NCBI GenBank assembly: GCA_965207415.1
Contig: CBDBMD010000003.1
Coordinates: 2,086,028-2,150,027 of the forward strand
Direction: 5' to 3'
From: Dehalococcoidia bacterium
GTDB taxonomy: Bacteria; Chloroflexota; Dehalococcoidia; UBA2979
DNA length: 64,000 nucleotides
In this document: positions 1,223 to 15,860 of the stretch, piece after piece
Position numbering within the stretch: position 1 is the first letter of the stretch
How the letters are laid out: each line of letters starts with the position of its first letter
Position numbers and translations under genes: made by a program
Notes under the pieces: model-generated
Told to the model about the DNA's origin: nothing
What the model saw: the letters and a program-made list of their open reading frames with translations, nothing else
Database searches by the model: none

Positions 1223-4200
1223 GTGACCGCACGGCTGACGGCCCTGCTGGTGGCACTCGTGCTCGCCCTGCCGGGCGCCGCCACGGTCGACGCCCAAGGC
1301 GCGGGCGGCGAGACGGACGTCATCGAGGTGCGCGTCGCCGCGCGACGGCTGCTCAACGGCAACACGGAGTTCGCGACGCAGCAGCGCCAGGCGGACGGGT
1401 CGTGGGGCGAGCGCCTGCTGCCGCGGGCGCGCTTCTTCCCCGCGAGCACGAGGGTCGGACGCTGGCTTGCGAGCTCGCCGCTCACGGTGCGTCCCTCGGG
1501 CGGAAGCGGTGCGGCGGAGATCCGCGTTGCCGCGCGGCTGCTCGCCGATGGCCGCATGGAGTTCGCGGCGCAGCAGCGCCAGGCGGACGGGTCGTGGGGC
1601 GAGCGCCTGCTGCCGCGGGCGCGCTTCTTCCCCGCGAGCACGAGGGTCGGACGCTGGCTTGCGAGCACGCCGCTGACGGTGACGCTGCGGCTCCCGGGCT
1701 CGGTCGCCTCAGACCGCGCCGCCCTCGTGGCGTTCTATGAGGCGACGAACGGTTCGAACTGGGAGAGCAGCAGCAACTGGCTGAGCGACAGGCCGCTCGG
1801 CGAGTGGCACGGCGTCACCACCGATGACAGTGGGCGCGTGACGGAACTGAGACTACTCAATAGCAGGCTGGCTGGCTCGCTCCCGGCCGAGCTTGGAGGG
1901 CTCTCAAGCCTGGAGGTGCTGTGGATCTCCGACAGTCCCAGGGGCAGGCAGCTTGGCGGCCCCATCCCGGTTGAGTTGGGTCGGCTCACGAACCTCCGCG
2001 CGCTGATCATCAGCAACATCAGCTTGAGCGGGCCCATCCCGGCTGAGATTGGGCGCCTCACTAATCTGCGCACACTCGATCTTGGACATAACCAGTTGAG
2101 CGGGCCCATCCCGATTGCCGTTGGAAACCTCAGCAGTCTGGGCACGCTTGGCCTCGAGCAGAACAAATTGAGCGGGCCGCTCCCGGTTGAGCTCGGACGC
2201 CTCTCAGAGTTGCGTCAGCTTGAAGTGGGGTGGAACCAGTTGAGCGGTCCAATCCCGATCGAGCTGGGAACTCTCTCCAACCTGGAATGGCTCGACCTCG
2301 GCGGAACCAACCAGTTAAGCGGGCGAATCCCGGCTGAGTTCGGCAGCCTCACGAACCTGAAACACCTGGACCTCTCAGGGAACCGACTGACCGGGCCGAT
2401 CCTGGCAGAGTTGGCGAATCTCACCAATCTGCGTGAGCTGAACCTCTGGGGAAACCAGCTGACGGGCCCGATCCCGACTGAGTTCGGCAGCCTCACGAAC
2501 CTAGAGCGGCTGTACCTCGGGAGGAACCGCCTGACCGGGCCGATCTTGGCAGGGTTAGGGAATCTCACCAATCTGCGTGAGCTGAACCTGTCGTGGAACC
2601 AGCTGACGGGGCCGATCGCGCCTGAGTTAGGGGCCCTCAGGGGCCTGGAGTCGCTCTACCTCTCAGGGAACGCGCTGAGTGGATCGATCCCGCCTGAGTT
2701 GGGGGCCCTCAGGGGCCTGCGCTCGCTCAGCCTCACAGCGAACGCGCTGAGCGGACCGATCCCGCCTGAGTTGGGGGCCCTCAGGGGCTTGGAGTCGCTC
2801 TACCTCTCAGAGAACGTGCTGAGCGGGCCGATCCCGGCCGAGCTGGGCAGCCTCGGGAACTTGCGTAGGTTAGGCCTCGATGGCAACGAGCTTGGCGGGC
2901 CGATCCCGGCTGAATTGGGCAACCTCATCAAGTTGGACGGTTTGAACTTGCAGATGAACCGGTTGGGTGGGCCGATCCCGGCTGAGCTGGGCAACCTCAC
3001 GGCCGTTGCGACGTTGGAGCTCTCTGACAACGACTTGAGCGGCTCGATCCCGTCCGCGCTCGGCAGTCTCATCTCCCTCGAACGACTGACCCTCGGGGGC
3101 AACGAGTTGAGCGGGTGCGTACCCAACGCACTGGAGGACGTGCCGGAGAACGACCTCACCGATCTCGGCCTGCCCTTCTGCTCACCCGTGACGGTCACGC
3201 AGCCGGCGAAGGGGTCGGTGGCATCGGACCGGGCCGCCCTTGTCGCGCTCTACGAAGCGACAGGCGGGCCGGGCTGGACGAACAGTGCGAAGTGGTTGAG
3301 CCATGCGCCGATTGGCACGTGGTTCGGCGTCACCACGAACGAAGACGGCCGTGTGACGGCGCTGGCCCTCGACGACAACCGGCTGGCCGGTCCGATACCG
3401 CCCGAATTGGGCAGCCTCACTCAACTGAGGACGCTCGGTCTCTCAAGCAACGAGCTGAGCGGACCGATACCGGCTGCGTTGGGTCGACTCGCGAACCTGC
3501 TGTTACTCGATCTCTCAATCAACGAGCTGAGCGGACCGCTCCCGGTTGAGTTAGGCGACCTCACCAACCTGAGTACGCTTCATCTCCGGGACAACCAACT
3601 GAGCGGGCCGATCCCAGCCGAACTGGGACGTCTCTCCAATCTGCAATGGTTCAACCTCGGAGGAGGCAACCAGTTGAACGGGCTAATCCCGGTTCAGTTG
3701 GGCAACCTCACCAAGCTGGGATGGCTGAACCTCGCGGAGAATGAGCTGAGCGGGCCAATTCCCCTTGAGCTGGGCAACCTGACCAACCTGGTCGAGCTGA
3801 GGCTCTCGGGGAACCAGCTCAGCGGAACAATCCCGGTTCAGCTGGGCGGACTTGCCTTCCTGCAGGAGCTGTGGCTCGGTGGCAACAAGTTGAGCGGGGC
3901 GATCCCGGCTGAGCTGGGCGGCCTCACCAACCTCTGGTCGCTGCATCTCGGTGGCAACAAGTTGAGCTGGCCGATCCCGGCTGAGCTGGGCAACCTCACC
4001 CGCCTGCGAAACCTGCATCTCTTCCACAACCAGTTGAGCGGGCCGATCCCTACGGAGCTGGGCGACCTTGCCAATCTTTGGACGCTAGATCTCGCAGACA
4101 ATGCGCTGAGCGGGCCGATCCCGACCGAGTTGGGCCGACTCACCAACCTGCGGACGTTGCTGATCCAGCACAACGAGCTCAGTGGGCCGATCCCGCCGGA

Positions 4201-4402
4201 GTTGGGCAGCCTGCAAAAGCTGGGTCGGCTCGAACTCCATCACAATGAGCTGAGCGGCCCGATCCCGGTCGAGCTGGGGAGGCTTACGGATCTGATCATT
4301 CTGTACCTCAGAGACAACTTGCTTACCGGGTGCATCCCCGAGGAGCTGCGAGACATCTGGCGGAACGACCTCGGCGAGCTCGGCCTCTCCTTCTGCAACT
4401 AG
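1223..4402 (+). CDS. Secreted plant-type leucine-rich-repeat protein (1059 aa) with two LRRNT+LRR ectodomain-like arrays
   Basis: GTG start with signal peptide MTARLTALLVALVLALPGAATVDA. Two 64-aa N-terminal modules, with nt 1378..1476 identical to 1570..1668. Two copies of an LRRNT-like cap (GSVASDRAALVAxYEATxG..W..W.GVT.D..GRVT.L.L), each followed by about 17-20 24-residue repeats LxxLxxLxLxxNxLSGPIPxELGx. Each array ends with a Cys cap (LSGCVP...DLGLPFC and LTGCIP...LGLSFCN). Confidence 0.8.
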   Translation: MTARLTALLVALVLALPGAATVDAQGAGGETDVIEVRVAARRLLNGNTEFATQQRQADGSWGERLLPRARFFPASTRVGRWLASSPLTVRPSGGSGAAEIRVAARLLADGRMEFAAQQRQADGSWGERLLPRARFFPASTRVGRWLASTPLTVTLRLPGSVASDRAALVAFYEATNGSNWESSSNWLSDRPLGEWHGVTTDDSGRVTELRLLNSRLAGSLPAELGGLSSLEVLWISDSPRGRQLGGPIPVELGRLTNLRALIISNISLSGPIPAEIGRLTNLRTLDLGHNQLSGPIPIAVGNLSSLGTLGLEQNKLSGPLPVELGRLSELRQLEVGWNQLSGPIPIELGTLSNLEWLDLGGTNQLSGRIPAEFGSLTNLKHLDLSGNRLTGPILAELANLTNLRELNLWGNQLTGPIPTEFGSLTNLERLYLGRNRLTGPILAGLGNLTNLRELNLSWNQLTGPIAPELGALRGLESLYLSGNALSGSIPPELGALRGLRSLSLTANALSGPIPPELGALRGLESLYLSENVLSGPIPAELGSLGNLRRLGLDGNELGGPIPAELGNLIKLDGLNLQMNRLGGPIPAELGNLTAVATLELSDNDLSGSIPSALGSLISLERLTLGGNELSGCVPNALEDVPENDLTDLGLPFCSPVTVTQPAKGSVASDRAALVALYEATGGPGWTNSAKWLSHAPIGTWFGVTTNEDGRVTALALDDNRLAGPIPPELGSLTQLRTLGLSSNELSGPIPAALGRLANLLLLDLSINELSGPLPVELGDLTNLSTLHLRDNQLSGPIPAELGRLSNLQWFNLGGGNQLNGLIPVQLGNLTKLGWLNLAENELSGPIPLELGNLTNLVELRLSGNQLSGTIPVQLGGLAFLQELWLGGNKLSGAIPAELGGLTNLWSLHLGGNKLSWPIPAELGNLTRLRNLHLFHNQLSGPIPTELGDLANLWTLDLADNALSGPIPTELGRLTNLRTLLIQHNELSGPIPPELGSLQKLGRLELHHNELSGPIPVELGRLTDLIILYLRDNLLTGCIPEELRDIWRNDLGELGLSFCN
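1378..1668 (+). repeat. Intragenic tandem duplication (192-bp period, 99 bp perfectly identical) inside the secreted LRR gene
   Basis: 1378..1476 and 1570..1668 are identical and encode QQRQADGSWGERLLPRARFFPASTRVGRWLAS twice. Confidence 0.85.
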
Positions 4403-7146: not shown

Positions 7147-9429
7147 TCAGTTGCAGAACGGCAGCCCAAGCGCGGCAAGGTCATTGTTCGGCCTGCCCCG
7201 CAACTCGACAGGTATGCAGCCGCTCAGCTCATTGCCCCTGAGAAGCAGCACTTGCAGGTTGCGAAGGGCGCCCAGTTCGGGCGGGATCGGCCCGCTCAAC
7301 TGGTTGTCGCGGAGATACAGCTCTCGCAGGTTGCTGAGGCCGCCTAACTCGGGCGGGATCGGCCCGCTCAACTGGTTGTCGCGGAGATCCAGGTCTAGCA
7401 GGTTGCTGAGGCCACCCAGCTCAGCCGGGATCGGCCCGCTCAACTCGTTGCCCCCGAGATCTAGGTCTTGCAGGTTGCTGAGGCCACCCAGCTCGGCCGG
7501 AATCGGCCCGCTCAACTGGTTGCCCCCGAGATCCAGGTCTTGCAGGTTGCTGAGTGCGCCCAACTTGGCCGGGATCGGCCCGCTCAACTCGTTGCCCCCG
7601 AGATCCAGGTCTTGCAGGTTGCTGAGGCCACCCAGCTCAGCCGGAATCGGCCCGCTCAGTTGGTTCTCGCCAAGATTCAGCAGGTCGAGGGTGGCGAGGC
7701 CGCCCAGCTCCGCCGGGATCGGCCCGCTCAGTTGGTTCTCGCCAAGATTCAGCAGGTCGAGGGTGGTGAGGCCGCCCAGCTCCGCCGGGATCGGCCCGCT
7801 CAGTTGGTTCTCGCCAAGATTCAGCAGGTCGAGGGTGGCGAGGCCGCCCAGCTCCGCCGGGATCGGCCCGCTCAGTTGGTTCTCGCCAAGATTCAGCAGG
7901 TCGAGGGTGGTGAGGCCGCCCAACTCGGCCGGAATCGGCCCGCTCAACTGGTTGGTCTCGAGCCGCAGCGTCACCAGCTTGGCAAGGTCGCCGAGCTCGG
8001 CCGGAATCGGCCCGCTCAACTGGTTGGTCTCGAGCCGCAGCGTCACCAGCTTGGCAAGGTTGCCGAGCTCGGGCGGGATCGGCCCGCTCAGCTGGTTGTT
8101 GTAGAGCTCCAACTCTGTCAGGTGGGGAAGGCCGCCGAGTTCAGGCGGGATCGGCCCACTCAACTGGTTGTTGTAGAGCTCCAACTCTGTCAGGTGGGGA
8201 AGGCCGCCGAGTTCAGGCGGGATCGGCCCACTCAACTGGTTGTCTTCGAGCCACAGGGCCACCAGATTGGCGAGGCCGCCCAGCTCGGCCGGGATCGGCC
8301 CGCTCAACTGGTTGCTCGCGAGATGCAGCTGTTCCAGATTGCCGAGGTCTCCCAGCTCGGCCGGGATCGGCCCACTCAACTGGTTCTTGTTGAGATACAG
8401 CAGTTCAAGGCGGATGAGGCCGCCCAGCTCACCCGGAATCCGTCCGCTCAACTGGTTGCTGTTGAGATCCAGTATTTCCAGATCGCTGAGGCCGCCCAGC
8501 TCGGCCGGGATCGGCCCACTCAGCTGGTTGTGGGAGAGGTCCAGCCATTCCAACTGGATGAGTCTAATCAACTCAGCAGGGATCGGCCCGCTCAGCTGGT
8601 TGTGGGAGAAGTCCAGCCATTCCAACTGGATGAGTCTAGTCAACTCAGCAGGGATCGGCCCGCTCAACTCGTTGAAGTGGAGAGCCAGCCATCGCAGGTT
8701 CGTGAGGCCGCCGAGTTCAGCCGGAATCGGTCCGCGCAAATGGTTCCCGATCAGAATCAGCTCTATGACCCGACCGCCGTCAGCGGTGACACCGTGCCAC
8801 TCGCCGATCGGTCGGTCGGTCAGCCAGTTCGTGGTGTTCGCCCAGTCCGGTCCACCCGTCGCCTCGTAGAGCGCGACAAGGGCGGCTCGGTCCGAGGCGA
8901 CCGAGCCCGGTGCAGGTGTCACGTCTGGGGTCGACGTCGACGTTGGTGTGGCCGTCGGCGTGGGCGTAGCTATCGAAGTCGGGGACGGCGTCGGGGTGGC
9001 CGTCGGAGTCGGAGTAGGCGCGGCTGTGGCTGTCGCCGGCGGCGCCTGCGCGAGCTGCTGCTCGCTGCCATCGAGGTCAGCGAGGACGATGAGCACGACC
9101 GCCACCGCGGCCACCGCCGCCGTGCCGGCCGCCGCCACGCCCGCCCACACGAGCACGCGCCCGAGGGGTTCGAGCGCCCCGGGCAGCGCGAGCAGCCCGA
9201 ACAGCCGCCGCCGCGGCTCGGGACGCCAGGCGGCGAGCTGCCCGCGGTTCTCGAGTCCCAGCTTCCCGAGCATGTTCGAGATGTGGAACTTGACCGCGTC
9301 GAGGGTGACGCCGAGCCGCACCGCGATCTCGGCGTTCGTGCCGCCTCGGCGCAGCTCTTCGAGCACGCGCAGCTCGGCCGGGGTGAGGATGCCGGGATGT
9401 GGCGGGCGGCCCCGCCCTCGCTGCGTCAT
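7147..9429 (-). CDS. Membrane-anchored one-component regulator: N-terminal LuxR-type HTH, single TM helix, extracellular plant-type LRR domain (about 22 repeats)
   Basis: N-terminus LTPAELRVLEELRRGGTNAEIAVRLGVTLDAVKFHISNMLGKLGLENRGQLAAW matches the LuxR/FixJ HTH. The hydrophobic span VLVWAGVAAAGTAAVAAVAVVLIVLA follows, then a Thr/Pro linker. An LRRNT-like cap (GSVASDRAALVALYEATGGPDWANTTNWLTDRPIGEWHGVT) and LxxLxLxxNQLSGPIPxELGxL repeats come next. The C-terminal cap is LSGCIPVELRG..NDLAALGLPFCN. Confidence 0.8.
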   Translation of the reverse strand: MTQRGRGRPPHPGILTPAELRVLEELRRGGTNAEIAVRLGVTLDAVKFHISNMLGKLGLENRGQLAAWRPEPRRRLFGLLALPGALEPLGRVLVWAGVAAAGTAAVAAVAVVLIVLADLDGSEQQLAQAPPATATAAPTPTPTATPTPSPTSIATPTPTATPTSTSTPDVTPAPGSVASDRAALVALYEATGGPDWANTTNWLTDRPIGEWHGVTADGGRVIELILIGNHLRGPIPAELGGLTNLRWLALHFNELSGPIPAELTRLIQLEWLDFSHNQLSGPIPAELIRLIQLEWLDLSHNQLSGPIPAELGGLSDLEILDLNSNQLSGRIPGELGGLIRLELLYLNKNQLSGPIPAELGDLGNLEQLHLASNQLSGPIPAELGGLANLVALWLEDNQLSGPIPPELGGLPHLTELELYNNQLSGPIPPELGGLPHLTELELYNNQLSGPIPPELGNLAKLVTLRLETNQLSGPIPAELGDLAKLVTLRLETNQLSGPIPAELGGLTTLDLLNLGENQLSGPIPAELGGLATLDLLNLGENQLSGPIPAELGGLTTLDLLNLGENQLSGPIPAELGGLATLDLLNLGENQLSGPIPAELGGLSNLQDLDLGGNELSGPIPAKLGALSNLQDLDLGGNQLSGPIPAELGGLSNLQDLDLGGNELSGPIPAELGGLSNLLDLDLRDNQLSGPIPPELGGLSNLRELYLRDNQLSGPIPPELGALRNLQVLLLRGNELSGCIPVELRGRPNNDLAALGLPFCN
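7400..8700 (-). repeat. Near-identical 72/144-bp tandem repeats inside the LRR array (recent repeat expansion)
   Basis: Several consecutive LRR units are nearly identical at nucleotide level (for example ETNQLSGPIPAELGDLAKLVTLRL x2, GENQLSGPIPAELGGL(T/A)TLDLLNL x4, GGN(E/Q)LSGPIPA(E/K)LG(G/A)LSNLQDLDL x3). Confidence 0.75.
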
Positions 9430-9574
9430 GCATCGAGTCTAGGAGCCGCTACCGCCGAATTTCACTACCCGACGACCTTTCGGCTCTTGCCCCACCACCG
9501 CCCCCGGCCCCAACCCGAGCCGGTGGTAGCATGGAGCGCGCGCCGCGAGGGCGCGCGAGACGGCTGGGGGCGAG

Positions 9575-11059
9575 ATGCACGACGTGGTGGTCGTCGGCGC
9601 TGGAAACGCGGCGCTCTGCGCCGCGCTGGCGGCGCAGGAGGCGGGCGCGAGCGTGCTCGTCCTCGAGAAAGCCAGCGAGGACGAGCGCGGCGGCAATACC
9701 TTCTTCACCGGCGGCGGCTTCCGCTTCCCCTACAACGGCATCGACGACATCGTCACGCTCATCCCGGACCTCACCGAGAGCGAGCTCGACCGCATCGAGG
9801 TCGGCGAGTACACCGAGGCCGCGATGCGCGAGGACCTGATGCGCGTCAGCGAGGGTCTCGCCGACGAGCAACTGACCGACCACCTGGTGCGCAACTCCTT
9901 CGACACCATGCAGTGGATGCGCGAACGCCTCGACGTGCGCTGGGTGCTGATGTACGGCCGCCAGGCCTACGAGGTGGAGGGCAAGCTGCGCTTCTGGGGC
10001 GGCCTGATCGTCGAGGCCGTCGGCGCCGGCAAGGGCCTCTCCGACTCGCTCTTCGCCGCCGCCGACCACCACGGCGTCGACGTGCGCTACGGCACGAAGG
10101 CCGTCGGCCTCGTGATGGACGACGCCGGCAACGTGCACGGCGTGCAGGCACGCGGCCCCAACGGCCTCGAGACCATCGACGCGCGCGCCGTGGTGATGGC
10201 AGCAGGTGGCTTCGAGGCGAACACGGAGATGCGCACCCGCTACATGGGCCCCGGCTGGGAACTGGCGAAGGTGCGCGGCACCCGTCACAACACCGGCGAG
10301 GGCATCCGCATGGCTCTCGACGTCGGAGCGCAGTCGCACGGCCACTGGTCCTCGGGGCACGCGGTCGCCTGGGATCTGAACGCGCCGCCGACGGGCAACC
10401 GCATCGTCGGCGACCTCTACCAGAAGCACTCCTACCCGCTGGGCCTGATCGTCAACATCGAGGGCGAGCGCTTCGTCGACGAGGGCGCGGACATGCGCAA
10501 CTACACCTACGCCAAGTACGGGCGCGAGATCCTGCGCCAGCCCTACGGCGTCGCCTTCCAGCTCTTCGACCAGAAGACCGTGCCGATCCTGCGCGACGAG
10601 TACCGCATCCGCGAGATCACGAAGGGCGAGGGTCAGACCATCGGCGAGCTGGCCGACGACCTCGGCATCGATCGCGAGGGGCTGGAGCGCACGGTCGCCG
10701 AGTTCAACGCCGCCTGTCAGCCGGGCGAGTTCAACCCGGCCGCCCTCGACGGCGTCAGCACCGAGGGCATCGAGCCGCCGAAGTCGAACTGGGCGATCCC
10801 GCTCGACGAGCCGCCCTACTTCGGCGTCGCCGTGACCTGCGGCATCACGTTCACCTTCGGCGGCCTGCGCATCGACCACCGCAGCGCGCAGGTGCTCGAC
10901 ACGGAGCTCGAGGCGATTCCCGGGCTCTACGCCGCCGGCGAGCTGGTCGGCGGGCTCTTCTACCACAACTACGCCGGCGGGACGGGGCTGATGTCCGGCG
11001 CGGTCTTCGGCCGCACGGCCGGGCGCGCCGCCGCCGAGGCGGTTCTCGGCGAGGGGTAG
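9575..11059 (+). CDS. FAD-dependent oxidoreductase, TcuA/fumarate-reductase-flavoprotein-like
   Basis: N-terminal dinucleotide-binding motif VVVVGAGNAALCAALAAQEAG and a C-terminal flavoprotein motif (GLYAAGELVGGLFYHNYAGGTGL). It is divergent from the LuxR-LRR gene. Confidence 0.75.
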   Translation: MHDVVVVGAGNAALCAALAAQEAGASVLVLEKASEDERGGNTFFTGGGFRFPYNGIDDIVTLIPDLTESELDRIEVGEYTEAAMREDLMRVSEGLADEQLTDHLVRNSFDTMQWMRERLDVRWVLMYGRQAYEVEGKLRFWGGLIVEAVGAGKGLSDSLFAAADHHGVDVRYGTKAVGLVMDDAGNVHGVQARGPNGLETIDARAVVMAAGGFEANTEMRTRYMGPGWELAKVRGTRHNTGEGIRMALDVGAQSHGHWSSGHAVAWDLNAPPTGNRIVGDLYQKHSYPLGLIVNIEGERFVDEGADMRNYTYAKYGREILRQPYGVAFQLFDQKTVPILRDEYRIREITKGEGQTIGELADDLGIDREGLERTVAEFNAACQPGEFNPAALDGVSTEGIEPPKSNWAIPLDEPPYFGVAVTCGITFTFGGLRIDHRSAQVLDTELEAIPGLYAAGELVGGLFYHNYAGGTGLMSGAVFGRTAGRAAAEAVLGEG

Positions 11060-11062
11060 CCG

Positions 11063-11248
11063 ATGCTCTACTTCCTCGCGATCATCGCGCCGCCGATCGC
11101 CGTGCTGGCAGTAGGGCGCCCCTGGCTGTCACTGCTGAACCTGATCCTGACGGTCGCCGGCTGGATTCCCGGCGTCATCCACGCGGTCCTCGTGATCAAC
11201 GAGCACAAGGCGGACCAGCGGGCCGCCCGCTACGGCCCGCAAGAGTAG
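11063..11248 (+). CDS. YqaE/Pmp3-family small membrane proteolipid
   Basis: 61 aa with two TM segments (MLYFLAIIAPPIAVLAVGRPWLSLLNLILTVAGWIPGVIHAV). It sits 4 bp after the preceding gene. Confidence 0.75.
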   Translation: MLYFLAIIAPPIAVLAVGRPWLSLLNLILTVAGWIPGVIHAVLVINEHKADQRAARYGPQE

Positions 11249-11291
11249 TCTCGGCGGCGATTCGCCGGGGCCCCGAGGAAGGACCACGGCG

Positions 11292-12308
11292 ATGCCCAAT
11301 GCCCCACGGCTCGGCGCGTTCGCGGCGCTCGCTCTGGCGGCGGCGCTCGCGACCTTCCCCGGCTGCTCCGGCGACGACGAGAGCGAGGCGCCAGCGACGC
11401 CCACCGCAACCGGCACCGCGACCCCGACCGCCTCACCTGTCGTGACGCCCTCGCCCTCGCCGACGCCAACGCTCGAGCCCGCAACCGCGACCCCGGTGGC
11501 GACCGCCGGGGCGGACCCGCCGTCCGGCGACGGCGAAGGCCTGCTGCCGCCGGAGCAACAGGCGCAGGTGGTGCGCCTGCTGCTCGACGCGATGAGCGAT
11601 CCAGATTCCGAGCTGTTCTCGGGCTCGATCGACGCGCTGCCGCCGGCGCTGCGGGCGCTGTTCGACGCACTCGGCGCCGACCTGCTGCTGGGCGTGATCA
11701 TCGCCGAGCTGGGAGGCTCGGGAACGGTCGTCGCCGTCCTCCCCGGCTCGCCCGCCGAGCGCGCGGGCCTTGTCGAGGGCGACCAGATCACCGCAGTCGA
11801 CGACACGCCCGTCGCGAGCGACGCGGAGCTGCGCGCCGCCATCGAGGCCGTCGCCGAGGGCGCGGCCTATGTGCTGACGGTCAGGCGCGGCGGTGCGCCC
11901 GGGCTGGTGGACCTCGAGCGCGAGGCGGCGTCCGAAGGCGACGCCTGGCGCGCGGAGCTGCTGCGCGCCGTGGCGCTCGCGCTGGTGCTGCAGGGCGCTC
12001 CGGGCGGCCCGGAAGTGCCGCCGTCGCTGCTCGGCGAGCTGGTCGAGGAGACGCCAGACGGGCTGCGCGTCTTCGCGGTCTTCCCCGGCTCACCCGCGGA
12101 CGCGGGCGGCATCCTCCCCGGCGACCAGCTGCTCTCGATCGATGGCCGCGCCCTCAGGACCATCGCCGACCTCGAGGAGTTGATGCGCTCGGGCGCGCCC
12201 CCGATCGGGCCGACCGAGGTCGTTGTGCTCCGCGACGGGGAGGAGCTGACGCTGGAGATCGACCTCGCCGCCGGCGGCATGCTCGGCGGCGGCGCGGCGA
12301 CACAGTAG
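11292..12308 (+). CDS. Lipoprotein with two PDZ domains
   Basis: Lipobox LATFPGCSG and a Pro/Thr/Ala linker. Two PDZ-like segments (GTVVAVLPGSPAERAGLVEGDQITAVDDTPV and GLRVFAVFPGSPADAGGILPGDQLLSIDGRAL). Confidence 0.7.
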   Translation: MPNAPRLGAFAALALAAALATFPGCSGDDESEAPATPTATGTATPTASPVVTPSPSPTPTLEPATATPVATAGADPPSGDGEGLLPPEQQAQVVRLLLDAMSDPDSELFSGSIDALPPALRALFDALGADLLLGVIIAELGGSGTVVAVLPGSPAERAGLVEGDQITAVDDTPVASDAELRAAIEAVAEGAAYVLTVRRGGAPGLVDLEREAASEGDAWRAELLRAVALALVLQGAPGGPEVPPSLLGELVEETPDGLRVFAVFPGSPADAGGILPGDQLLSIDGRALRTIADLEELMRSGAPPIGPTEVVVLRDGEELTLEIDLAAGGMLGGGAATQ

Positions 12309-12341: not shown

Positions 12342-13499
12342 TCAGGCGAGGGTTTCGTTCACGATCGAGAGGCCCTGCCGGAGCTGGGCGCGCCAGTCTT
12401 GCCGGGGATGGCGGATCGCGTTCGTGCAGACGCGGAAGAGGCACACGCCCTCGCGCAGGGCGAGATCGCGTTCGCTCCACTCGAATCGATCGAGCGCAGC
12501 CTGCCGGAAGTCCGCGTGGTACGCACCGGCCGCCGGTGCGTCACGCCTGCGCCCGAAGTGCGAGGCCCAGCGCAGGTGCCCGAGGAAGTTGCCCACGTCG
12601 AGCAGTGGATCGCCCGGTCCCGCCTCCTCGAAATCGACCAGCGCAATCCGGCCGTCGGGCAGGACCAGCATCTGGTCGTCGTAGAAGTCGTTGTGCGCGA
12701 TGCCCGACGGCTCCCATGACTCGACGAACGGATCGAGCACCCCCATGGCCGCCTTGAGCTCGCGCAGCGCCGCGTCGTCGGTGGCGGCCTTGTGCCGGAA
12801 GCTCCGCTTCGCCCGGCGGTACGCGCCGGCGAGGTTGAACGGGCGCCCGCCCTCGGACTCGCGGGGCGCAGCCCAGAGGCTCTCAAGCGCGTCGAGGAGC
12901 ACGCCGGGGTCCGGGCCCCTTCCCGCCCGAATGCGCTGTCGCAGGTTCCTGCCCGGAATCTCCGACATCCACAGCACGGCGCCGTCCCGCCAGTGCCCGG
13001 CCAGCCTCGGTACGACGAACCTCGAGCGCCCGGCGAGGTTCCTGGCCGCGAGCAGCGGCTCTACTGCGTCGGGGCGCATCGCTCGCGCGTAGAAGCGCGC
13101 CTTGCCCACGCGGTGGCGCAGCACGGCGCGGCTCGCCGGGCGGTAGCGAACCAGCTCCACGCGCACGCGCCGCGCCGGGATCGCCAGCACGTGCTGGTTG
13201 AGCAGCCGCAGCGCACCGTCGGGGTGAGCGGCCTCGGCCAGGCCGGGCAGGGTGCGGTCCTCGGGGTACTGGAACAGCTCGGCCGGCTGGCCGCGCTCGA
13301 TCCTGATCGTGAAGACCTGCGAGGGCAGGTAGTCGTCCTCGTGCCACTGCGCCTCGTAGCTGACCTGGGCGGTTCGGCCGGGGCTGTGGCTCAGTTCGCG
13401 CACGCGAATCCGCTGAGGACTGACCTCCTGCCTGCCGTTCCGCTGCTCGTAGGCGCCCCAGATCCACTCGGGGTCGTAGAGCCCGGGCAGCTCCGGCAA
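12342..13499 (-). CDS. Phosphotransferase (APH/choline-kinase-like) family protein; start codon uncertain
   Basis: The C-terminal half carries kinase-like catalytic motifs (GIAHNDFYDDQMLVLPDGRIALVDFEEAGPGDPLLDVGNFLGHL). There is no ATG upstream of the domain; a TTG near 13499 is a candidate. The T/R-rich 5-prime part of the track ORF 12342..14609 is an off-frame read of the repeat gene. Confidence 0.55.
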   Translation of the reverse strand: MPELPGLYDPEWIWGAYEQRNGRQEVSPQRIRVRELSHSPGRTAQVSYEAQWHEDDYLPSQVFTIRIERGQPAELFQYPEDRTLPGLAEAAHPDGALRLLNQHVLAIPARRVRVELVRYRPASRAVLRHRVGKARFYARAMRPDAVEPLLAARNLAGRSRFVVPRLAGHWRDGAVLWMSEIPGRNLRQRIRAGRGPDPGVLLDALESLWAAPRESEGGRPFNLAGAYRRAKRSFRHKAATDDAALRELKAAMGVLDPFVESWEPSGIAHNDFYDDQMLVLPDGRIALVDFEEAGPGDPLLDVGNFLGHLRWASHFGRRRDAPAAGAYHADFRQAALDRFEWSERDLALREGVCLFRVCTNAIRHPRQDWRAQLRQGLSIVNETLA

Positions 13500-13572
13500 C
13501 GCGGGGTCGTTGGGGAACTCGACCGGCGGGTAGAGCGGAGCGACCGCTGGCGAGGCGGCCGACGCCCCCCGC

Positions 13573-15189
13573 TCAGCTGCTGACGTCGTCACTGTCGTCA
13601 CTGTCCTCGTCGCTTCCGGTCTCCGGCGTGGGCGTGTCGATGCCGTCCGAGTCCGTGCCGTCGTTGTCCGTCGGCGTCGGCGTGTCGATGCCGTCTGAGT
13701 CGGTACCGTCGTTGTCTGTCGGCGTCGGCGTGTCGATGCCGTCCGAGTCCGTGCCGTCGTTGTCCGTCGGCGTTGGCGTATCGATGCCGTCCGAGTCCGT
13801 GCCGTCGTTGTCCGTCGGCGTCGGCGTGTCGATGCCGTCGTGGTCGGTGTTGGCCTCGGTGTCGAAGCCGTCGCCATCCGTCGTCGGCGTGTCGAACCCG
13901 TCGTTGTCCGTCGTCGTCGGCGTCGGCGTGTCGATGCCGTCGTGGTCGGTGTTGGCCTCGGTGTCGAAGCCGTCGCCATCCGTCGTCGGCGTGTCGAACC
14001 CGTCGTTGTCCGTCGTCGTCGGCGTCGGCGTGTCGATGCCGTCGTGGTCGCTGTTGGCCTCGGTGTCGAAGCCATCACCATCCGTCGTCGGCGTATCGAA
14101 CCCGTCGTTGTCCGTCGTCGTCGGCGTCGGCGTGTCGATGCCGTCGTGGTCGGTGTTGGCCTCGGTGTCGAAGCCATCGCCATCCGTCGTCGGCGTGTCG
14201 AACCCGTCGTTGTCCGTCGTCGTCGGCGTCGGCGTGTCGATGCCGTCGTGGTCGGTGTTGGCCTCGGTGTCGAAGCCATCGCCATCCGTCGTCGGCGTGT
14301 CGAACCCGTCGTTGTCCGTCGTCGTCGGCGTTGGCGTGTCGATGCCGTCGTGGTCGGTGTTGGCCTCGGTGTCGAAGCCGTCGCCATCCGTCGTCGGCGT
14401 GTCGAACCCGTCGTTGTCCGTCGCGTCCTGGAGTCCCTGTTGCAGGCGCACGACCGGCTCGGGCGTGTCGATGCCGTCCGAGTCCGTGCCGTCGTTGTCC
14501 GTCGGCGTGGGTGTGTCGATGCCATCCGAGTCCGTGCCGTCGTTGTCCGTCGGGGTCGGGGTGTCGATGCCGTCGTAGTCGGTGTACGGGGTGTTGACGC
14601 CGTCGCCATCGGTCGAGGGGGTATCGACGCCGTCGTAGTCCGTGTAGGCGGTGGCGACGCCGTCGTCGTCGGTCAGCGGTGTATCGACGCCGTCGTAGTC
14701 CGTGTACGGCGTCGCGAACCCGTCGTTGTCGGTGTACGGCGTGTCGATCCCATCCTCGTCGGTGTAAGGGGTGTCGATGCCATCGCGGTCCGTGTCGGGC
14801 GTGTCGATGCCGTCGTCATCGGTTGGAGTCGGGGTGTCGACGCCCTCTGCGTCGGTCGGAGGAGTGCTGAAGCCGTCGTAGTCGGTGTACGGAGTATCGA
14901 CGCCATCGTCGTCGGTGTCGGGCGTGTCGATCCCGTCGTAGTCGGTCTCGGGCGTGTCGTAGCCATCGTCGTCGGTGGGCGTCGGCGTGTCGTCATCATC
15001 GTCGTCGTCGTCACCACTGTCGTCATCGTCACCAGCAAGCATCACGGCGATACGCGATAGCAGGGCAGCGTAGTCCGTGGTGTCGTTCACGTCGCCCGGC
15101 ACGCCGGCTCCCACGCCGCGCGACACCATGGCGAGCGCCAGCACGAGCGAGAGCGTGAGCGACAGCAGCTTGAGGGCACGAGACCGCAT
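13573..15189 (-). CDS. Secreted, highly acidic tandem-repeat protein with Ca-binding-like D-x-D-G-x-D motifs (TSP type-3-like)
   Basis: ATG at 15189 with a GGGAGG RBS 8 nt upstream. Signal peptide MRSRALKLLSLTLSLVLALAMVS. Then poly-Asp and dozens of DTPxTDxDGxDTP repeats (34-aa and 16-aa units). The stop lies about 70 bp before the kinase-like gene. Confidence 0.7.
   Translation of the reverse strand: MRSRALKLLSLTLSLVLALAMVSRGVGAGVPGDVNDTTDYAALLSRIAVMLAGDDDDSGDDDDDDDDTPTPTDDDGYDTPETDYDGIDTPDTDDDGVDTPYTDYDGFSTPPTDAEGVDTPTPTDDDGIDTPDTDRDGIDTPYTDEDGIDTPYTDNDGFATPYTDYDGVDTPLTDDDGVATAYTDYDGVDTPSTDGDGVNTPYTDYDGIDTPTPTDNDGTDSDGIDTPTPTDNDGTDSDGIDTPEPVVRLQQGLQDATDNDGFDTPTTDGDGFDTEANTDHDGIDTPTPTTTDNDGFDTPTTDGDGFDTEANTDHDGIDTPTPTTTDNDGFDTPTTDGDGFDTEANTDHDGIDTPTPTTTDNDGFDTPTTDGDGFDTEANSDHDGIDTPTPTTTDNDGFDTPTTDGDGFDTEANTDHDGIDTPTPTTTDNDGFDTPTTDGDGFDTEANTDHDGIDTPTPTDNDGTDSDGIDTPTPTDNDGTDSDGIDTPTPTDNDGTDSDGIDTPTPTDNDGTDSDGIDTPTPETGSDEDSDDSDDVSS
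13600..14600 (-). repeat. Coding tandem repeats (102-bp and 48-bp units)
   Basis: Repeated GTCGATGCCGTC... blocks are visible by eye. They generate the spurious plus-strand ORFs 13628..14578, 13773..14597 and 13840..15060. Confidence 0.85.
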
Positions 15190-15436
15190 CGGAACGACCT
15201 CCCGCAGGACCGGTTCGCCGGGCCGTAGCGCCGACTGGGCTCTGATGGCCCGCCTCCGGAAGTTGGTCGGAGCACAATAGCACCGGGAACATAACAAATC
15301 TATTGGATACGGCAGATCTCGCCATCACGTTCTCGTGACAGAGGTGATTGCATGCCCCACCGCAGGGGCTCCCGGAGCAGCGCGTTGTTCGCGCCCCAAT
15401 CGGAGGGGAGCCTGCGACAGCCGGAGGCAAAGAAGG

Positions 15437-15468
15437 GGGAGGGGGCGGCGAGGATGCCGCCCCCTCCC
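15437..15468. promoter_or_regulatory. Perfect 13-bp inverted repeat (GGGAGGGGGCGGC-gaggat-GCCGCCCCCTCCC) in a 670-bp divergent intergenic region
   Basis: Read directly from the sequence. No T-run follows on either strand, so it is not a canonical terminator. It lies upstream of the CoA-transferase pair and 5-prime of the acidic repeat gene. Confidence 0.4.
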
Positions 15469-15860
15469 TTCGAGGTCCCGGGAGCGGGGAGCCCGGGGTT
15501 GAAGATTGCTTCGTGTCAGAAGCCGGTAGGGCCGCCTCCCGTCCCGTCACCCACGACGGCGCGGCGGCGGCGCCGGGGAGGAGGGGGAGCAGGCTGCTTC
15601 GTGGCTGGGTCGAAGCGACTCGCACTGGCGTTCCTCCCCTGGCGGCTGCGCGGGCCCCCGCCGCGTTCGAACAGGGAAGAGTGTGCGAGCGCTTCGTTAA
15701 GGCGATGTTCAGATTAGATTAGCAACGCGTTTAAGCATTTTCGGATTGGGATCGCAGCCTTCGAGGGCGCCCCACGCCCCCGGCCGCTTGACAGCCTCAC
15801 GCCGCTTGCCGAGGCTCACGCGAGAGCGGAGCGCACGGGCGGCCCGGACGGAGAGCGCGG

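What the first reader, a model, noticed from the sequence alone, without database searches (positions are those of the whole stretch)
12342..15189. Secreted hyper-acidic DxDGxD tandem-repeat (TSP3-like Ca-binding) protein followed by an APH-fold kinase-like gene
A signal-peptide protein of about 540 aa is made almost entirely of DTPxTDxDGxDTP units (poly-Asp, no Cys). It resembles thrombospondin type-3 / bacterial Ca-binding repeats. The next gene on the same strand encodes an aminoglycoside-phosphotransferase/choline-kinase-fold protein (HNDFYDDQ...IALVDFEEAG). That gene has no recognisable ATG start and a 100-aa N-terminal extension. This pairing is not a standard operon I recognise. It could be a mineral/cation-binding surface protein with a dedicated kinase. 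The repeat region also spawns several long spurious ORFs on both strands.
Basis: partly seen in the sequence, partly recalled or inferred. Interest (0 to 1): 0.55.

Follow-up and report, generated by a model that had tools for sequence, protein, structure and literature searches.

The report
Acidic repeat protein with dedicated kinase
Bacteria that live in marine sponges carry a conserved, undescribed gene pair: an exported, extremely acidic Asp/Thr/Pro repeat protein and, overlapping its end, its own kinase-like enzyme, which probably phosphorylates it to make a polyanionic surface coat.

Summary
Both genes lie on the minus strand.

- **Partner gene (15189..13573):** a 538-aa protein with a signal peptide and no Cys (28% Asp, 22% Thr, net charge -154). 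It is built from about 40 decapeptides, TDxDG(I/V/F)DTPx.
- **Kinase gene (13592..12342):** starts at a GTG 20 nt inside the partner gene. It encodes a complete 416-aa APH-fold kinase. Its "N-terminal extension" is a conserved, confidently folded domain.

The thrombospondin type-3 (TSP3) label is not supported.

- The kinase family occurs in at least 259 species genomes, mostly Dehalococcoidia/SAR202, with some Caldilineaceae, Trueperaceae and others. Several are verified sponge symbionts.
- 80 of 81 informative loci have the acidic partner beside the kinase, in unrelated genomic contexts, and no third gene is conserved.
- Natural partner-kinase fusions exist.
- One genome holds two diverged cassettes, each with its own kinase.
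- The feature shared by all partners is acidic-(Ser/Thr)-Pro plus an SDDSDD tail, not DxDG.

Best reading: a dedicated kinase-substrate cassette that makes a secreted polyanionic phosphoprotein. The functional link is strongly supported. The catalytic target is inferred.

Puzzles remain. The substrate is exported but the kinase has no signal. The ATP-binding Lys is replaced by an invariant Arg. The pairing is strictly one kinase per partner.

The parts
13573..15189 (-). Partner gene: an exported, intrinsically disordered, hyper-acidic repeat protein (538 aa plus stop).
   Evidence: ORF and ATG. Composition and motifs. Conserved upstream of the kinase in 80 of 81 informative loci. The Asp/Thr frame is favoured by the synonymous/non-synonymous counts. 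AlphaFold2 (AF2) on the single sequence gives pLDDT 38 and no secondary structure after residue 48.
15198..15203 (-). Shine-Dalgarno-like GGGAGG, 8 nt upstream of the partner ATG.
   Evidence: Read directly from the sequence.
15115..15189 (-). Signal peptide or N-terminal hydrophobic segment (MRSRALKLLSLTLSLVLALAMVSRG).
   Evidence: Translation. AF2 helix at residues 2-25. An equivalent segment is present in 62 of 75 partners recovered; the rest are cut at contig ends or have a mis-set start.
15046..15078 (-). Conserved post-signal motif (TDYAALLSRIA). It holds a single Arg in ..A.(I/V/L)(S/P)R.., 5-12 residues before the first poly-acidic run.
   Evidence: An Arg lies within 20 aa upstream of the first acidic run in 55 of 63 partners. 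AF2 predicts a short helix at residues 38-48.
14989..15033 (-). Poly-Asp run (DDDDSGDDDDDDDD).
   Evidence: An equivalent acidic run is present in essentially all partners.
14419..14991 (-). Block of diverged 10-aa units TDxDG(I/V/F)DTPx, with two 16-aa units at its end.
   Evidence: Tandem Repeats Finder (TRF) reports a 30-nt period with 14.3 copies at 72% matches. Unit listing.
13813..14427 (-). Six near-identical 34-aa (102-nt) super-units (DNDGFDTPTT DGDGFDTEANT DHDGIDTPTPTTT). This is a recent expansion.
   Evidence: TRF gives 98% matches and score 1174. The block is absent from the closest relative, L006, whose kinase is 92% identical and whose partner is 309 aa.
13624..13839 (-). 4.5 copies of a 16-aa (48-nt) unit, DNDGTDSDGIDTPTPT.
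   Evidence: TRF gives 92% matches. The same unit recurs across many species.
13576..13620 (-). Acidic Ser/Asp C-terminal tail (TGSDEDSDDSDDVSS). Its codons contain the kinase start.
   Evidence: Pooled over 75 partners, the last 15 residues are 39% D and 29% S.
13573..13592 (-). 20-nt overlap between the partner's 3' end and stop codon and the kinase start. This implies translational coupling.
   Evidence: In most relatives the partner ORF ends about 16-39 nt past the estimated kinase start; Trueperaceae and one Caldilineaceae locus overlap by only about 3-5 nt, and L031/L034/L035/L037/L039/L067 do not overlap.
12342..13592 (-). Kinase gene: a 416-aa APH/ELK-fold kinase of a distinct, partner-linked clade. 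It starts at GTG 13592; GTG 13601 is possible.
   Evidence: PF01636 at E = 1.1e-10. P0001 is 100% identical over 416 aa. AF2 gives pLDDT 89.7 and pTM 0.84. Foldseek matches APH-fold kinases with probability 1.0.
13188..13535 (-). Family-specific N-terminal beta-rich domain of the kinase (LYPPVEFPNDPALPELP ... PEDRTLPGL ...).
   Evidence: Conserved in all 26 aligned homologues and in the outgroup for the DPxLPGL motif. pLDDT is 86-98.
13083..13085 (-). Arg170 codon, at the position of the beta3 ATP-binding Lys (FYAR).
   Evidence: Invariant Arg in partner-linked kinases, Lys (Y[AVL]K) in the 10 more remote aligned homologues (only one, P0189, had its context checked: no partner).
12672..12695 (-). 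Catalytic loop HNDFYDDQ (the Brenner-type HxDxxxxN motif with Gln in place of Asn).
   Evidence: H300, N301, D302 and Q307 are invariant. It aligns to HADFGSNN of APH(4)-Ia.
12624..12638 (-). Metal-binding VDFEE motif (the equivalent of DFG).
   Evidence: D320, E322 and E323 are invariant. It aligns to IDWSEA of APH(4)-Ia.
15437..15468 (-). Perfect 13-bp GC hairpin followed by a T-rich tail, in the 671-nt region upstream of the partner gene. Whether it belongs to the cassette is uncertain.
   Evidence: No Rfam family matches it.

Best explanation
The locus is a self-contained, translationally coupled two-gene cassette found in sponge-associated bacteria.

**Gene 1** encodes an exported, disordered polyanion. 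It has five parts:
- a Sec-type signal;
- a short motif with a single conserved Arg;
- a poly-Asp run;
- a variable number of acidic-(Ser/Thr)-Pro repeats, here elaborated into TDxDGxDTPx decapeptides;
- an SDDSDD tail.

Some relatives add LysM, fn3, an unknown globular domain or a sortase-type anchor. This marks the product as a cell-surface or matrix protein.

**Gene 2** starts inside the tail codons of gene 1. It encodes a cytoplasmic APH/ELK-fold kinase of a distinct clade.

**Proposed mechanism (inferred):** the kinase is made from the same mRNA immediately after its partner. It phosphorylates the partner's Ser/Thr residues, at [D/E]-[S/T]-P sites and/or the Ser-Asp tail, before or during export. 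The result is a densely phosphorylated, hyper-anionic surface or secreted protein. This protein would bind divalent cations and/or shape the symbiont-host interface, as a protein analogue of teichoic acid, phosphophoryn or mucin.

**Shown here:**
- the anatomy of both genes;
- the conservation and exclusivity of the pair;
- the overlap between the genes;
- the natural fusions;
- the kinase fold and its conserved catalytic Asp and metal ligands;
- the predicted disorder of the partner.

**Inferred, not shown:**
- that the kinase is active;
- that its substrate is the partner;
- the order of phosphorylation and export;
- cation binding;
- the role in symbiosis.
For: **The pair is conserved and exclusive.**
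- The kinase family has 588 or more close homologues and occurs in 259 species genomes.
- In 80 of 81 informative loci an acidic, signal-bearing partner of 110-940 aa lies directly upstream. It usually overlaps the kinase start by about 16-39 nt.
- Clustering all neighbouring ORFs of 82 loci finds no other conserved gene. The flanks differ between loci.

**The link holds in both directions.**
- Three repeat proteins found through the repeat search alone were looked up. Each is followed by an APH gene.
- One genome has two cassettes whose kinases are only 58% identical.
- A divergent kinase (P0123, about 41% identical in A3) still has a partner, built from ESPESP repeats with a poly-acidic run and an acidic tail. 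Another about 41%-identical kinase (P0131) has a poly-D, PTNTP-repeat, LPTAG-anchored protein just downstream.
- A remote homologue with the canonical Lys (P0189) has no partner.

**Fusions exist.** The partner and kinase occur in one ORF in P0315, P0345, P0308 and P0122. P0315 is identical on 11 contigs from several samples.

**The partners look like kinase substrates.**
- [ST]P is 3-fold over-represented and [DE][ST]P 6-fold.
- 76% of all prolines follow Ser or Thr.
- 71 of 74 partners have at least 5 [ST]P sites.

**The kinase looks functional.**
- The model is confident (pLDDT 89.7).
- Foldseek gives probability 1.0 to APH-fold kinases. The hits include TvaE bound to a leader peptide (8jsu) and a peptide-antibiotic kinase.
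- H300, D302, Q307 and D320 are invariant.

**The partner is extracytoplasmic.** The evidence is the signal peptides, LysM or fn3 domains in some members and an LPTAG-plus-TM anchor in L093.
Against: - **Compartment mismatch.** The partner is exported, while the kinase has no signal or TM segment. In the fusions the kinase sits C-terminal to the exported part with no second TM.
- **Unusual active site.** The beta3 ATP-binding Lys is replaced by an invariant Arg in exactly the partner-linked clade. In eukaryotic-type protein kinases this change usually kills activity (own knowledge).
- **Fold bias.** Most characterised APH-fold enzymes phosphorylate small molecules. All structural matches are at fold level only (TM 0.36-0.49, 10-18% identity).
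- **Strict 1:1 pairing.** This is not what a freely diffusing catalytic kinase would need.
- **No direct data.** There is no evidence for expression, phosphorylation or cation binding.
- **Kinase charge is not consistently complementary.** pI ranges from 6.0 to 10.0.
Confidence: 0.45

Rival explanations
1. The kinase-like protein works stoichiometrically rather than catalytically. It would bind the nascent polyanion, through its tail or its N-terminal Arg motif, as a chaperone, export pilot or co-secreted subunit. In this reading it is a pseudokinase or a single-turnover enzyme.
For: - Pairing is strictly 1:1, even when two or three cassettes share a genome.
- The overlapping genes imply translational coupling.
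- Covalent fusions exist.
- The beta3 Lys is replaced by Arg only in the partner-linked clade.
- An APH-fold protein that binds a leader peptide is among the structural matches (TvaE-TvaLP, 8jsu).
Against: - The catalytic Asp, the metal-binding Asp and the surrounding motifs (HNDxYDDQ, VDFEExGxGDP) are invariant over 40-100% sequence identity. This is atypical for pseudokinases.
- No export signal is visible on the kinase.
- A kinase-only duplicate exists (L043).
Confidence: 0.2
2. The kinase phosphorylates something other than the polypeptide itself. The target could be a glycan attached to the Thr/Ser-Pro repeats, as POMK does on O-mannose of alpha-dystroglycan or Fam20B on xylose (own knowledge). 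It could also be a small molecule needed to modify or use the partner.
For: - The best structural matches are sugar and small-molecule kinases: maltokinase 4u94, MTR kinase 2pun, choline kinase, homoserine kinase and PsiK.
- Gln replaces Asn in the catalytic loop, as in maltokinase (own knowledge).
- Thr/Pro-rich linkers of secreted bacterial proteins are often O-glycosylated (own knowledge).
Against: - No glycosyltransferase or any other gene is conserved next to the pair.
- Bacterial O-glycosylation of Sec substrates mostly occurs outside the cytoplasm, where this signal-less kinase would not be.
- The 1:1 linkage and the fusions point to direct protein-protein contact.
- NCBIfam gives no equivalog-level match to any small-molecule kinase.
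Confidence: 0.15
3. RiPP-like chemistry: the kinase phosphorylates Ser/Thr of a ribosomal precursor so that the phosphate is then eliminated to give dehydro-amino acids, as with the lanthipeptide class III/IV/V and thioamitide kinases.
For: - There is a weak NCBIfam hit to the class V lanthionine synthetase kinase LxmK (E = 6e-7, 28.9 bits) and to LanKC.
- TvaE-leader (8jsu) is among the Foldseek matches.
- The precursor-like gene lies immediately upstream.
Against: - The scores are far below the curated cut-offs (28.9 against 315 bits) and cover only the catalytic loop.
- No lyase, cyclase or transporter is conserved nearby.
- The partner has no Cys, is 110-940 aa long, and carries a Sec signal and folded domains such as LysM and fn3.
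Confidence: 0.03
4. The two genes are functionally unrelated neighbours. The repeat protein would be simply a TSP3-like calcium-binding surface protein, and the kinase a stand-alone antibiotic or metabolite phosphotransferase.
For: - The APH family annotation.
- The Asp-rich DxDG motifs.
Against: - The two genes are adjacent in 80 of 81 informative loci across phyla, in unrelated contexts.
- The genes overlap.
- Fusions exist.
- The reciprocal look-ups hold.
- The TSP3 tests are negative.
Confidence: 0.02

Closest known systems
[quoted passage not shown]
   Same: A dedicated bacterial kinase polyphosphorylates tandem Ser-rich repeats of structural surface-layer proteins, and the genes are genetically linked to it. 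The result is a phosphorylation module that patterns an outer layer.
   Different: - CotH has a different, atypical kinase fold, not the APH fold.
- Its substrates carry basic (Ser-Lys-Arg) repeats, not hyper-acidic ones.
- Everything happens in the mother-cell cytoplasm, so there is no export problem.
- One kinase serves several substrates.
- There is no gene overlap, and no fusions are known.
Fam20C (Golgi casein kinase) with secreted acidic phosphoproteins such as dentin phosphophoryn (DSS repeats) and osteopontin (own knowledge)
   Same: Secreted, disordered, Asp/Ser-rich polyanions gain cation-binding capacity through dense phosphorylation by a dedicated acidophilic kinase. The SDDSDD tail here looks like phosphophoryn.
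   Different: - That system is eukaryotic and works in the secretory-pathway lumen, where ATP is available.
- The kinase family is unrelated.
- Its target motif is S-x-E.
- Nothing here shows mineral or calcium binding.
APH/ELK-fold small-molecule kinases: mycobacterial maltokinase (4u94), 5-methylthioribose kinase (2pun), choline kinase, APH(4)/APH(9), homoserine kinase
   Same: - The bilobal fold is the same (Foldseek probability 1.0).
- The HxD catalytic loop and the downstream metal-binding Asp are shared.
- Like maltokinase, this kinase has an extra N-terminal domain and Gln instead of Asn in the loop (own knowledge for maltokinase).
   Different: - TM-scores are only 0.36-0.49, with 10-18% identity.
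- Sequence searches against solved structures are not significant (E >= 0.07).
- The beta3 Lys is replaced by Arg.
- The catalytic loop reads HND instead of HGD.
- This kinase is obligatorily paired with a protein partner.
RiPP-associated APH-fold proteins: class V lanthipeptide kinase LxmK and the thioamitide TvaE-leader complex (8jsu)
   Same: These are APH-fold proteins that recognise a ribosomal peptide encoded next door.
   Different: - The scores are far below the family cut-offs.
- No lyase or cyclase accompanies the pair.
- The partner is a large exported protein without Cys.
Thrombospondin type-3 and bacterial TSP3 or DxDxDG calcium-binding repeats
   Same: Tandem Asp-rich units contain a D-x-D-G core, so cation binding is plausible on charge grounds.
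   Different: - Neither a Pfam nor a PDB sequence match is found.
- The spacing differs: T-D-x-D-G-x-D-T-P against D-x-D-x-D-G-x-x-D-x-x-D.
- There is no Cys.
- The protein is predicted to be disordered.
- The DxDG motif is dispensable in part of the family.

Membership tests
Pfam PF01636 APH (phosphotransferase enzyme family; ELK/CAK fold) | A match to the family HMM above the gathering score. | tested here: met
   42.1 bits against a cut-off of 23.2, E = 1.1e-10, residues 152-368.
Pfam PF01636 APH (phosphotransferase enzyme family; ELK/CAK fold) | A bilobal kinase fold. | tested here: met
   AlphaFold2 (AF2) gives pLDDT 89.7 and pTM 0.84. Foldseek gives probability 1.0 to many APH-fold kinases, but TM is only 0.36-0.49.
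Pfam PF01636 APH (phosphotransferase enzyme family; ELK/CAK fold) | The catalytic loop HxDxxxxN and a downstream metal-binding Asp. | tested here: met
   H300, D302 and D320 are invariant. The Asn position is an invariant Gln307.
Pfam PF01636 APH (phosphotransferase enzyme family; ELK/CAK fold) | The beta3 ATP-binding Lys, with its partner Glu in helix C. | tested here: not met
   The Lys of the 10 more remote aligned homologues (Y[AVL]K) is an invariant Arg170 (FYAR) in the partner-linked clade. No invariant Glu is seen in the following helix. The consequence for activity is unknown.
Choline/ethanolamine kinase (PF01633) | A match to the family HMM above the gathering score. | tested here: not met
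   14 bits against a cut-off of 29.
Class V lanthionine synthetase kinase LxmK (NF038156) and class III LanKC (NF038151) | An equivalog-level HMM score, plus the accompanying lyase or cyclase and a Cys-containing core peptide. | tested here: not met
   28.9 against 315 bits, and 12 against 575 bits. No conserved neighbour other than the partner. No Cys in the partner.
Maltokinase (Mak/Pep2) | Close structural or sequence similarity, and the GlgE-pathway gene context. | tested here: not met
   It is the top Foldseek hit, but with TMq 0.42, rmsd 13 and 15% identity. There is no NCBIfam hit. The context contains no trehalose synthase or GlgE.
Thrombospondin type-3 repeat (PF02412) and bacterial TSP3 repeats | A match to the repeat HMM. 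| tested here: not met
   0 Pfam families at E <= 10 for the window protein. None appear among 37 family members.
Thrombospondin type-3 repeat (PF02412) and bacterial TSP3 repeats | The DxDxDGxxDxxD calcium-binding motif. In animal TSPs it is held by disulfides. | tested here: not met
   0 occurrences of the full motif, 2 of DxDxDG, and 39 of D.DG.D. No Cys. No match to any PDB chain, thrombospondins included, at E <= 10.
Thrombospondin type-3 repeat (PF02412) and bacterial TSP3 repeats | Calcium binding. | not testable with these tools
   This needs 45Ca overlay, ITC or CD on recombinant protein.
Dedicated protein kinase with a repeat substrate (functional class, such as CotH-CotB/CotG) | Conserved genetic linkage between the kinase and a repeat protein. 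| tested here: met
   80 of 81 informative loci, fusions, and reciprocal look-ups.
Dedicated protein kinase with a repeat substrate (functional class, such as CotH-CotB/CotG) | Demonstrated phosphotransfer to the repeat protein. | not testable with these tools
   This needs a kinase assay or phosphoproteomics.
Known anti-phage defence systems (PADLOC) | A match to any PADLOC model. | tested here: not met
   No hit for either protein.

The most novel reading that the evidence does not exclude
This may be a previously unrecognised bacterial system for post-translational modification and surface-coat formation, characteristic of sponge symbionts and shared between phyla. Each exported acidic [D/E]-[S/T]-P repeat protein would be made together with its own cis-encoded, Arg-for-Lys APH-fold kinase.

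The kinase would act in one of two ways. It could hyper-phosphorylate the nascent polyanion before export, which would make this the first dedicated bacterial pathway for a secreted phosphoprotein. Alternatively it could travel with the partner and act outside the cell, as the fusions suggest.

The product would be a phosphoprotein analogue of teichoic acid, mucin or phosphophoryn. It would mediate cation capture or host-matrix interaction and evasion in the sponge mesohyl.
Probability: 0.25. Interest if true: 0.85.

Novelty: new variant of a known kind. Interest (0 to 1): 0.7.

Why it matters
High-microbial-abundance sponges host dense, phylogenetically diverse symbiont communities. How these bacteria persist in the host matrix is largely unknown beyond the "eukaryote-like" repeat proteins.

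This cassette is a conserved, unannotated two-gene module. It is present in at least 259 species genomes, including Chloroflexota, Deinococcota and an Actinomycetota-labelled bin, and sometimes in two or three copies per genome. The partner has no Pfam family, and nothing on it turned up in the literature searched.

If the kinase does phosphorylate its partner, three things would follow:
- It would be a rare bacterial case of a dedicated kinase producing a secreted polyanionic phosphoprotein.
- It would give a concrete, testable candidate for cation handling or host-interface chemistry in sponge symbiosis.
- It would add a protein-directed, Arg-for-Lys branch to the APH kinase superfamily.

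Two features are mechanistically odd and worth explaining in their own right: the rule of one kinase per substrate, and the mismatch between an exported substrate and a signal-less kinase.

Tried and rejected
- **TSP3 / calcium-repeat family membership.** Pfam at E <= 10, NCBIfam, 37 family members, motif counts and a PDB sequence search were all negative.
- **Defence system.** PADLOC found nothing.
- **Structured RNA or riboswitch in the long 5' region.** Rfam gave only sub-threshold chance hits. The GC hairpin at 15437-15468 is unique in the window.
- **Promoters and terminators.** No sigma-70-like promoter was found, and the terminator-like sites were no more frequent than in shuffled sequence.
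- **Opposite-strand or alternative-frame coding of the repeat region.**
  - The substitution pattern rejects four of the five other frames.
  - The codon-aligned antisense frame cannot be separated by that test.
  - It is rejected instead because its ORF is partial (13628-14578).
  - The sense frame, by contrast, carries the conserved signal peptide, tail and kinase overlap in about 80 species.
- **Kinase as a fragment or pseudogene.** Rejected.
- **A third conserved gene** (phosphatase, lyase, transporter, glycosyltransferase). None was found.
- **Other acidic repeat genes in the window.** None was found. The AT-skew anomalies at 42-44 kb and 54-58 kb are other genes.
- **Structure of the partner.** The single-sequence model has low confidence (pLDDT 38). 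I used it only as an indication of disorder, not for a fold search. Alignment A2 was unsuitable as an MSA because many homologues carry an extra globular domain.
- **Tat "hitch-hiker" export of the kinase.** Partner signals lack a consistent twin-Arg motif.
- **Source-genome look-up.** The exact source protein, P0001, is not on record in the contig index.
- **Literature.** Three searches for this cassette found nothing relevant.
- **Kinase surface charge as a substrate clue.** Inconclusive; pI ranges from 6.0 to 10.0.

Full report
**1. What is at the coordinates**

Both genes lie on the minus strand.

*The repeat gene* runs from ATG 15189 to the TGA at 13575-13573 and encodes 538 aa. A GGGAGG lies 8 nt upstream of the ATG. 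The protein has, in order:
- a Sec-type N-terminus, MRSRALKLLSLTLSLVLALAMVS;
- a short segment, TDYAALLSRIA;
- a poly-Asp run;
- about 40 decapeptides of the form T-D-x-D-G-(I/V/F)-D-T-P-x;
- a tail, TGSDEDSDDSDDVSS.

Its composition is 27.7% Asp, 21.6% Thr, 11% Gly and 9% Pro, with no Cys. Net charge is -154.

At the DNA level there are several arrays:
- a diverged array with a 30-nt period;
- six 102-nt units at 98% identity (score 1174);
- 48-nt units.

One of these is a 755-aa ORF that is simply the kinase frame staying open upstream through the repeats.

*The kinase gene.* Its conserved sequence begins just after the repeat gene's stop. The only in-frame starts upstream of it are GTG 13601 and GTG 13592. 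A 100%-identical 416-aa database protein corresponds to GTG 13592. The two genes therefore overlap by 20 nt, and the start codon is embedded in the Ser/Asp tail codons.

**2. The kinase**

- *Family.* It passes the Pfam APH threshold. It is not choline kinase, and it hits no NCBIfam equivalog.
- *Homologues.* It belongs to a tight family of proteins about 406 aa long. There are 588 or more close hits at 55-90% identity, covering 95-100% of the query.
- *Structure.* AlphaFold2 (AF2), run with a 26-sequence alignment, gives pLDDT 89.7 and pTM 0.84. Only residues 1-14 are disordered.
- *Fold comparison.* Foldseek against the PDB gives fold-level matches only. They include maltokinase, MTR kinase, choline kinase, APH(9)/APH(4), homoserine kinase, PsiK, a corramycin kinase and TvaE bound to a leader peptide. 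TM-scores are 0.36-0.49 and identity is 10-18%. Sequence and profile searches against the PDB are not significant.
- *Invariant residues.* These include H300-N-D302-x-Y-x-D-Q307 and V-D320-x-E-E-x-G-x-G.
- *Arg for Lys.* Aligning more remote homologues shows that their beta3 Lys (Y[AVL]K) is an invariant Arg (FYAR, R170) in this clade. Gln307 is shared by both groups.
- *Location.* There is no signal peptide or TM segment.

**3. The repeat protein**

- *No family.* It has no Pfam or NCBIfam family even at E <= 10. None appears in 37 homologues, and there is no sequence match to any PDB chain.
- *No TSP3 motif.* The TSP3 motif DxDxDGxxDxxD occurs 0 times and DxDxDG twice.
- *Disorder.* Single-sequence AF2 predicts no secondary structure beyond the signal helix and a short helix at residues 38-48 (pLDDT 38). 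This fits an intrinsically disordered polyanion.
- *Reading frame.* Codon comparison with two relatives supports the Asp/Thr frame. The codon-aligned antisense frame cannot be excluded by that test alone. The conserved signal peptide, tail and gene overlap argue against it.

**4. Comparative genomics: the main result**

*Distribution.* A scan of one genome per species found 259 genomes with a relative of the kinase. The best 80 are mostly Dehalococcoidia/SAR202. The rest are:
- Caldilineaceae;
- Anaerolineales;
- Phototrophicaceae;
- a complete Trueperaceae chromosome (Deinococcota) with three copies;
- one Acidimicrobiaceae-labelled contig.

*Sponge origin.* Several source bins are documented sponge symbionts:
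- SB0661_bin_34, from Ircinia ramosa, and APA bins, from Aplysina aerophoba (PMC11706023);
- SAR202 bins 87, 90 and 16, from A. aerophoba (PMC5649159).

The window itself encodes two plant-type LRR "eukaryote-like" proteins.

*Conservation of the pair.* In 80 of 81 loci with enough upstream sequence, a partner lies next to the kinase. The partner has a signal peptide, is rich in Asp, Thr and Pro, and is essentially Cys-free (0-3 Cys). It usually ends about 16-39 nt inside the kinase ORF. The exceptions are:
- Caldilineaceae, where a LysM-type partner sits 320-860 nt upstream;
- one Trueperaceae kinase-only partial duplicate.

Clustering all neighbouring ORFs of 82 loci shows that only these two genes are conserved. 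The flanking genes differ between loci.

*The link holds from the partner side.* Three repeat proteins found only through the repeat search (309, 561 and 937 aa) were looked up. Each is followed by an APH-family gene of 406-413 aa. Two of them lie in one 3.57-Mb genome, 1.2 Mb apart. Their kinases are only 58% identical and their partners are quite different.

*Fusions.* Natural fusions of partner and kinase in one ORF exist in a clade (P0315, P0345, P0308, P0122). P0315 is identical on 11 contigs from several samples.

*Depth of the association.*
- A kinase about 41% identical (P0123) has an upstream partner with ESPESP repeats, a poly-acidic run and an acidic tail.
- Another about 41%-identical kinase (P0131) has a poly-D, PTNTP-repeat, LPTAG-anchored protein just downstream.
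- A still more remote homologue with the canonical Lys (P0189) has no partner.

**5. What the partners share**

The shared features are:
- a signal;
- a motif ..A.(I/V/L)(S/P)R.. with a lone Arg 5-12 residues before the first poly-acidic run (55 of 63 partners);
- acidic-(S/T)-P repeats;
- an Asp/Ser tail (39% D and 29% S in the last 15 residues).

For the repeats:
- [ST]P occurs 1744 times against 573 expected.
- [DE][ST]P occurs 900 times against 144 in shuffled sequence.
- 76% of prolines follow Ser or Thr.
- 71 of 74 partners have at least 5 such sites.

DxDG is common (65 of 74 partners) but absent or rare in Trueperaceae partners and the L088 and L093 partners, among others.

The middle of the protein is variable. 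It may be empty, or hold LysM, fn3 or an unannotated globular domain of about 300 aa.

Repeat number changes quickly. The window protein has 538 aa, against 309 aa in a relative whose kinase is 92% identical.

**6. Interpretation**

The functional coupling of the two genes is very well supported; I put it at about 0.9.

The most economical mechanism is a dedicated kinase-substrate pair. The APH-fold enzyme would be translated from the same mRNA directly after its partner. It would phosphorylate Ser/Thr in the [D/E]-[S/T]-P repeats and/or the Ser-Asp tail. The result would be a hyper-anionic phosphoprotein that is exported to the wall, surface or sponge matrix. LysM, fn3 and sortase-type anchors in relatives argue for that location.

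Cation binding follows plausibly from the charge density, but it was not tested.

I give this specific mechanism about 0.45, because of three unresolved points:
1. The partner is exported while the kinase has no signal, and in the fusions it follows the exported part without a second TM.
2. The ATP-binding Lys is an invariant Arg.
3. The pairing is strictly one kinase per partner. This would fit a stoichiometric or co-translational role as well as, or better than, a diffusible catalyst.

The rivals, with my estimates, are:
- a non-catalytic or single-turnover binder or export pilot (0.2);
- a kinase for a glycan or small molecule linked to the partner (0.15);
- RiPP-like dehydration (0.03);
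- coincidental neighbours (0.02).

**7. Comparison with what is known**

- *Closest functional analogies.* These are CotH with the repeat proteins CotB and CotG of the Bacillus spore coat (PMC7821199), and eukaryotic Fam20C with phosphophoryn-type acidic phosphoproteins (own knowledge).
- *Closest structural relatives.* These are generic APH-fold small-molecule kinases, none of them close.
- *TSP3.* Membership was tested and not met.

The kinase is a new, partner-linked clade of a known superfamily. The partner family is unannotated. I found no description of the cassette in three literature searches. I therefore rate it a new variant of a known kind (a dedicated kinase with a repeat substrate). 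There is a real chance that it is something more unusual.

**8. Verdict**

The pairing and the "dedicated kinase" idea hold. TSP3, the "extension" and the possible pseudogene do not.
- Interest is 0.7.

Noticed in passing
window 1223-4402 (+) and 7147-9429 (-): Two large plant-type leucine-rich-repeat proteins, with more than 20 units of LxxLxLxxNxLSGPIPxELGxL. The second has an N-terminal LuxR-type HTH, a TM segment and a Pro/Thr linker. These are typical "eukaryote-like proteins" of sponge symbionts. The antisense strand of the second LRR array gives a spurious 1325-aa ORF (7468-11445 +).
   Followed up: partly
window 15437-15468 (-), within the 671-nt intergenic region 15190-15860: A perfect 13-bp GC-rich hairpin (GGGAGGGGGCGGC...GCCGCCCCCTCCC) followed by CCTTCTTTGC lies upstream of the partner gene. 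It is unique in the window and matches no Rfam family. Its role is unknown; it could be a terminator for nothing obvious, an attenuator or a remnant.
   Followed up: partly
L042, L043, L044 (Trueperaceae chromosome OY764543.1): Three copies of the kinase in one genome are 99.5-100% identical at the protein level. L043 is a kinase-only duplicate whose duplicated DNA begins about 70 nt upstream of the kinase start. It is the only informative locus without a partner. An rve_3 transposase fragment lies near the related locus L003.
   Followed up: partly
L091 3501-5186 and many hits (for example P0271-P0274): An unannotated globular domain of about 300 aa (..SCDxSRxDYYxS..GHVHGPNT..YTVSDRTP..YLRxGW..YExRAY..) is inserted between the N-terminal acidic module and the C-terminal repeats of many partner proteins. 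It has no Pfam family.
   Followed up: no
L093 3824-4666: Next to a kinase about 41% identical (in A3), the acidic PTNTP-repeat protein lies downstream rather than upstream. It ends in LPTAG, a hydrophobic segment and RRSA, which is a sortase-type cell-wall sorting signal.
   Followed up: no
P0172, P0176, P0182, P0196 and others: The next tier of kinase relatives (E about 1e-40 to 1e-25) are proteins of about 750-1050 aa with two or three tandem APH domains. They have no other Pfam domain and no name.
   Followed up: partly
P0315, P0345, P0122, P0308 linkers: In the natural fusions, the linker between the acidic part and the kinase is a cluster of basic residues (RTKRRRRS, RTRRPRRA, RARRSKRA). 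In P0315, P0345 and P0122 it looks like the former acidic tail read in the kinase frame. It also fits RxK/RR (furin-like) cleavage motifs. The significance is unknown.
   Followed up: no
window 11292-12308 (+); L001 9249-10346; L006 6276-7277: A PDZ-domain lipoprotein-like gene converges on the kinase gene in the window and in its two closest relatives. In L002 a PDZ-containing M50 protease occupies the same position. It is not conserved across the family, so this is probably coincidence.
   Followed up: partly
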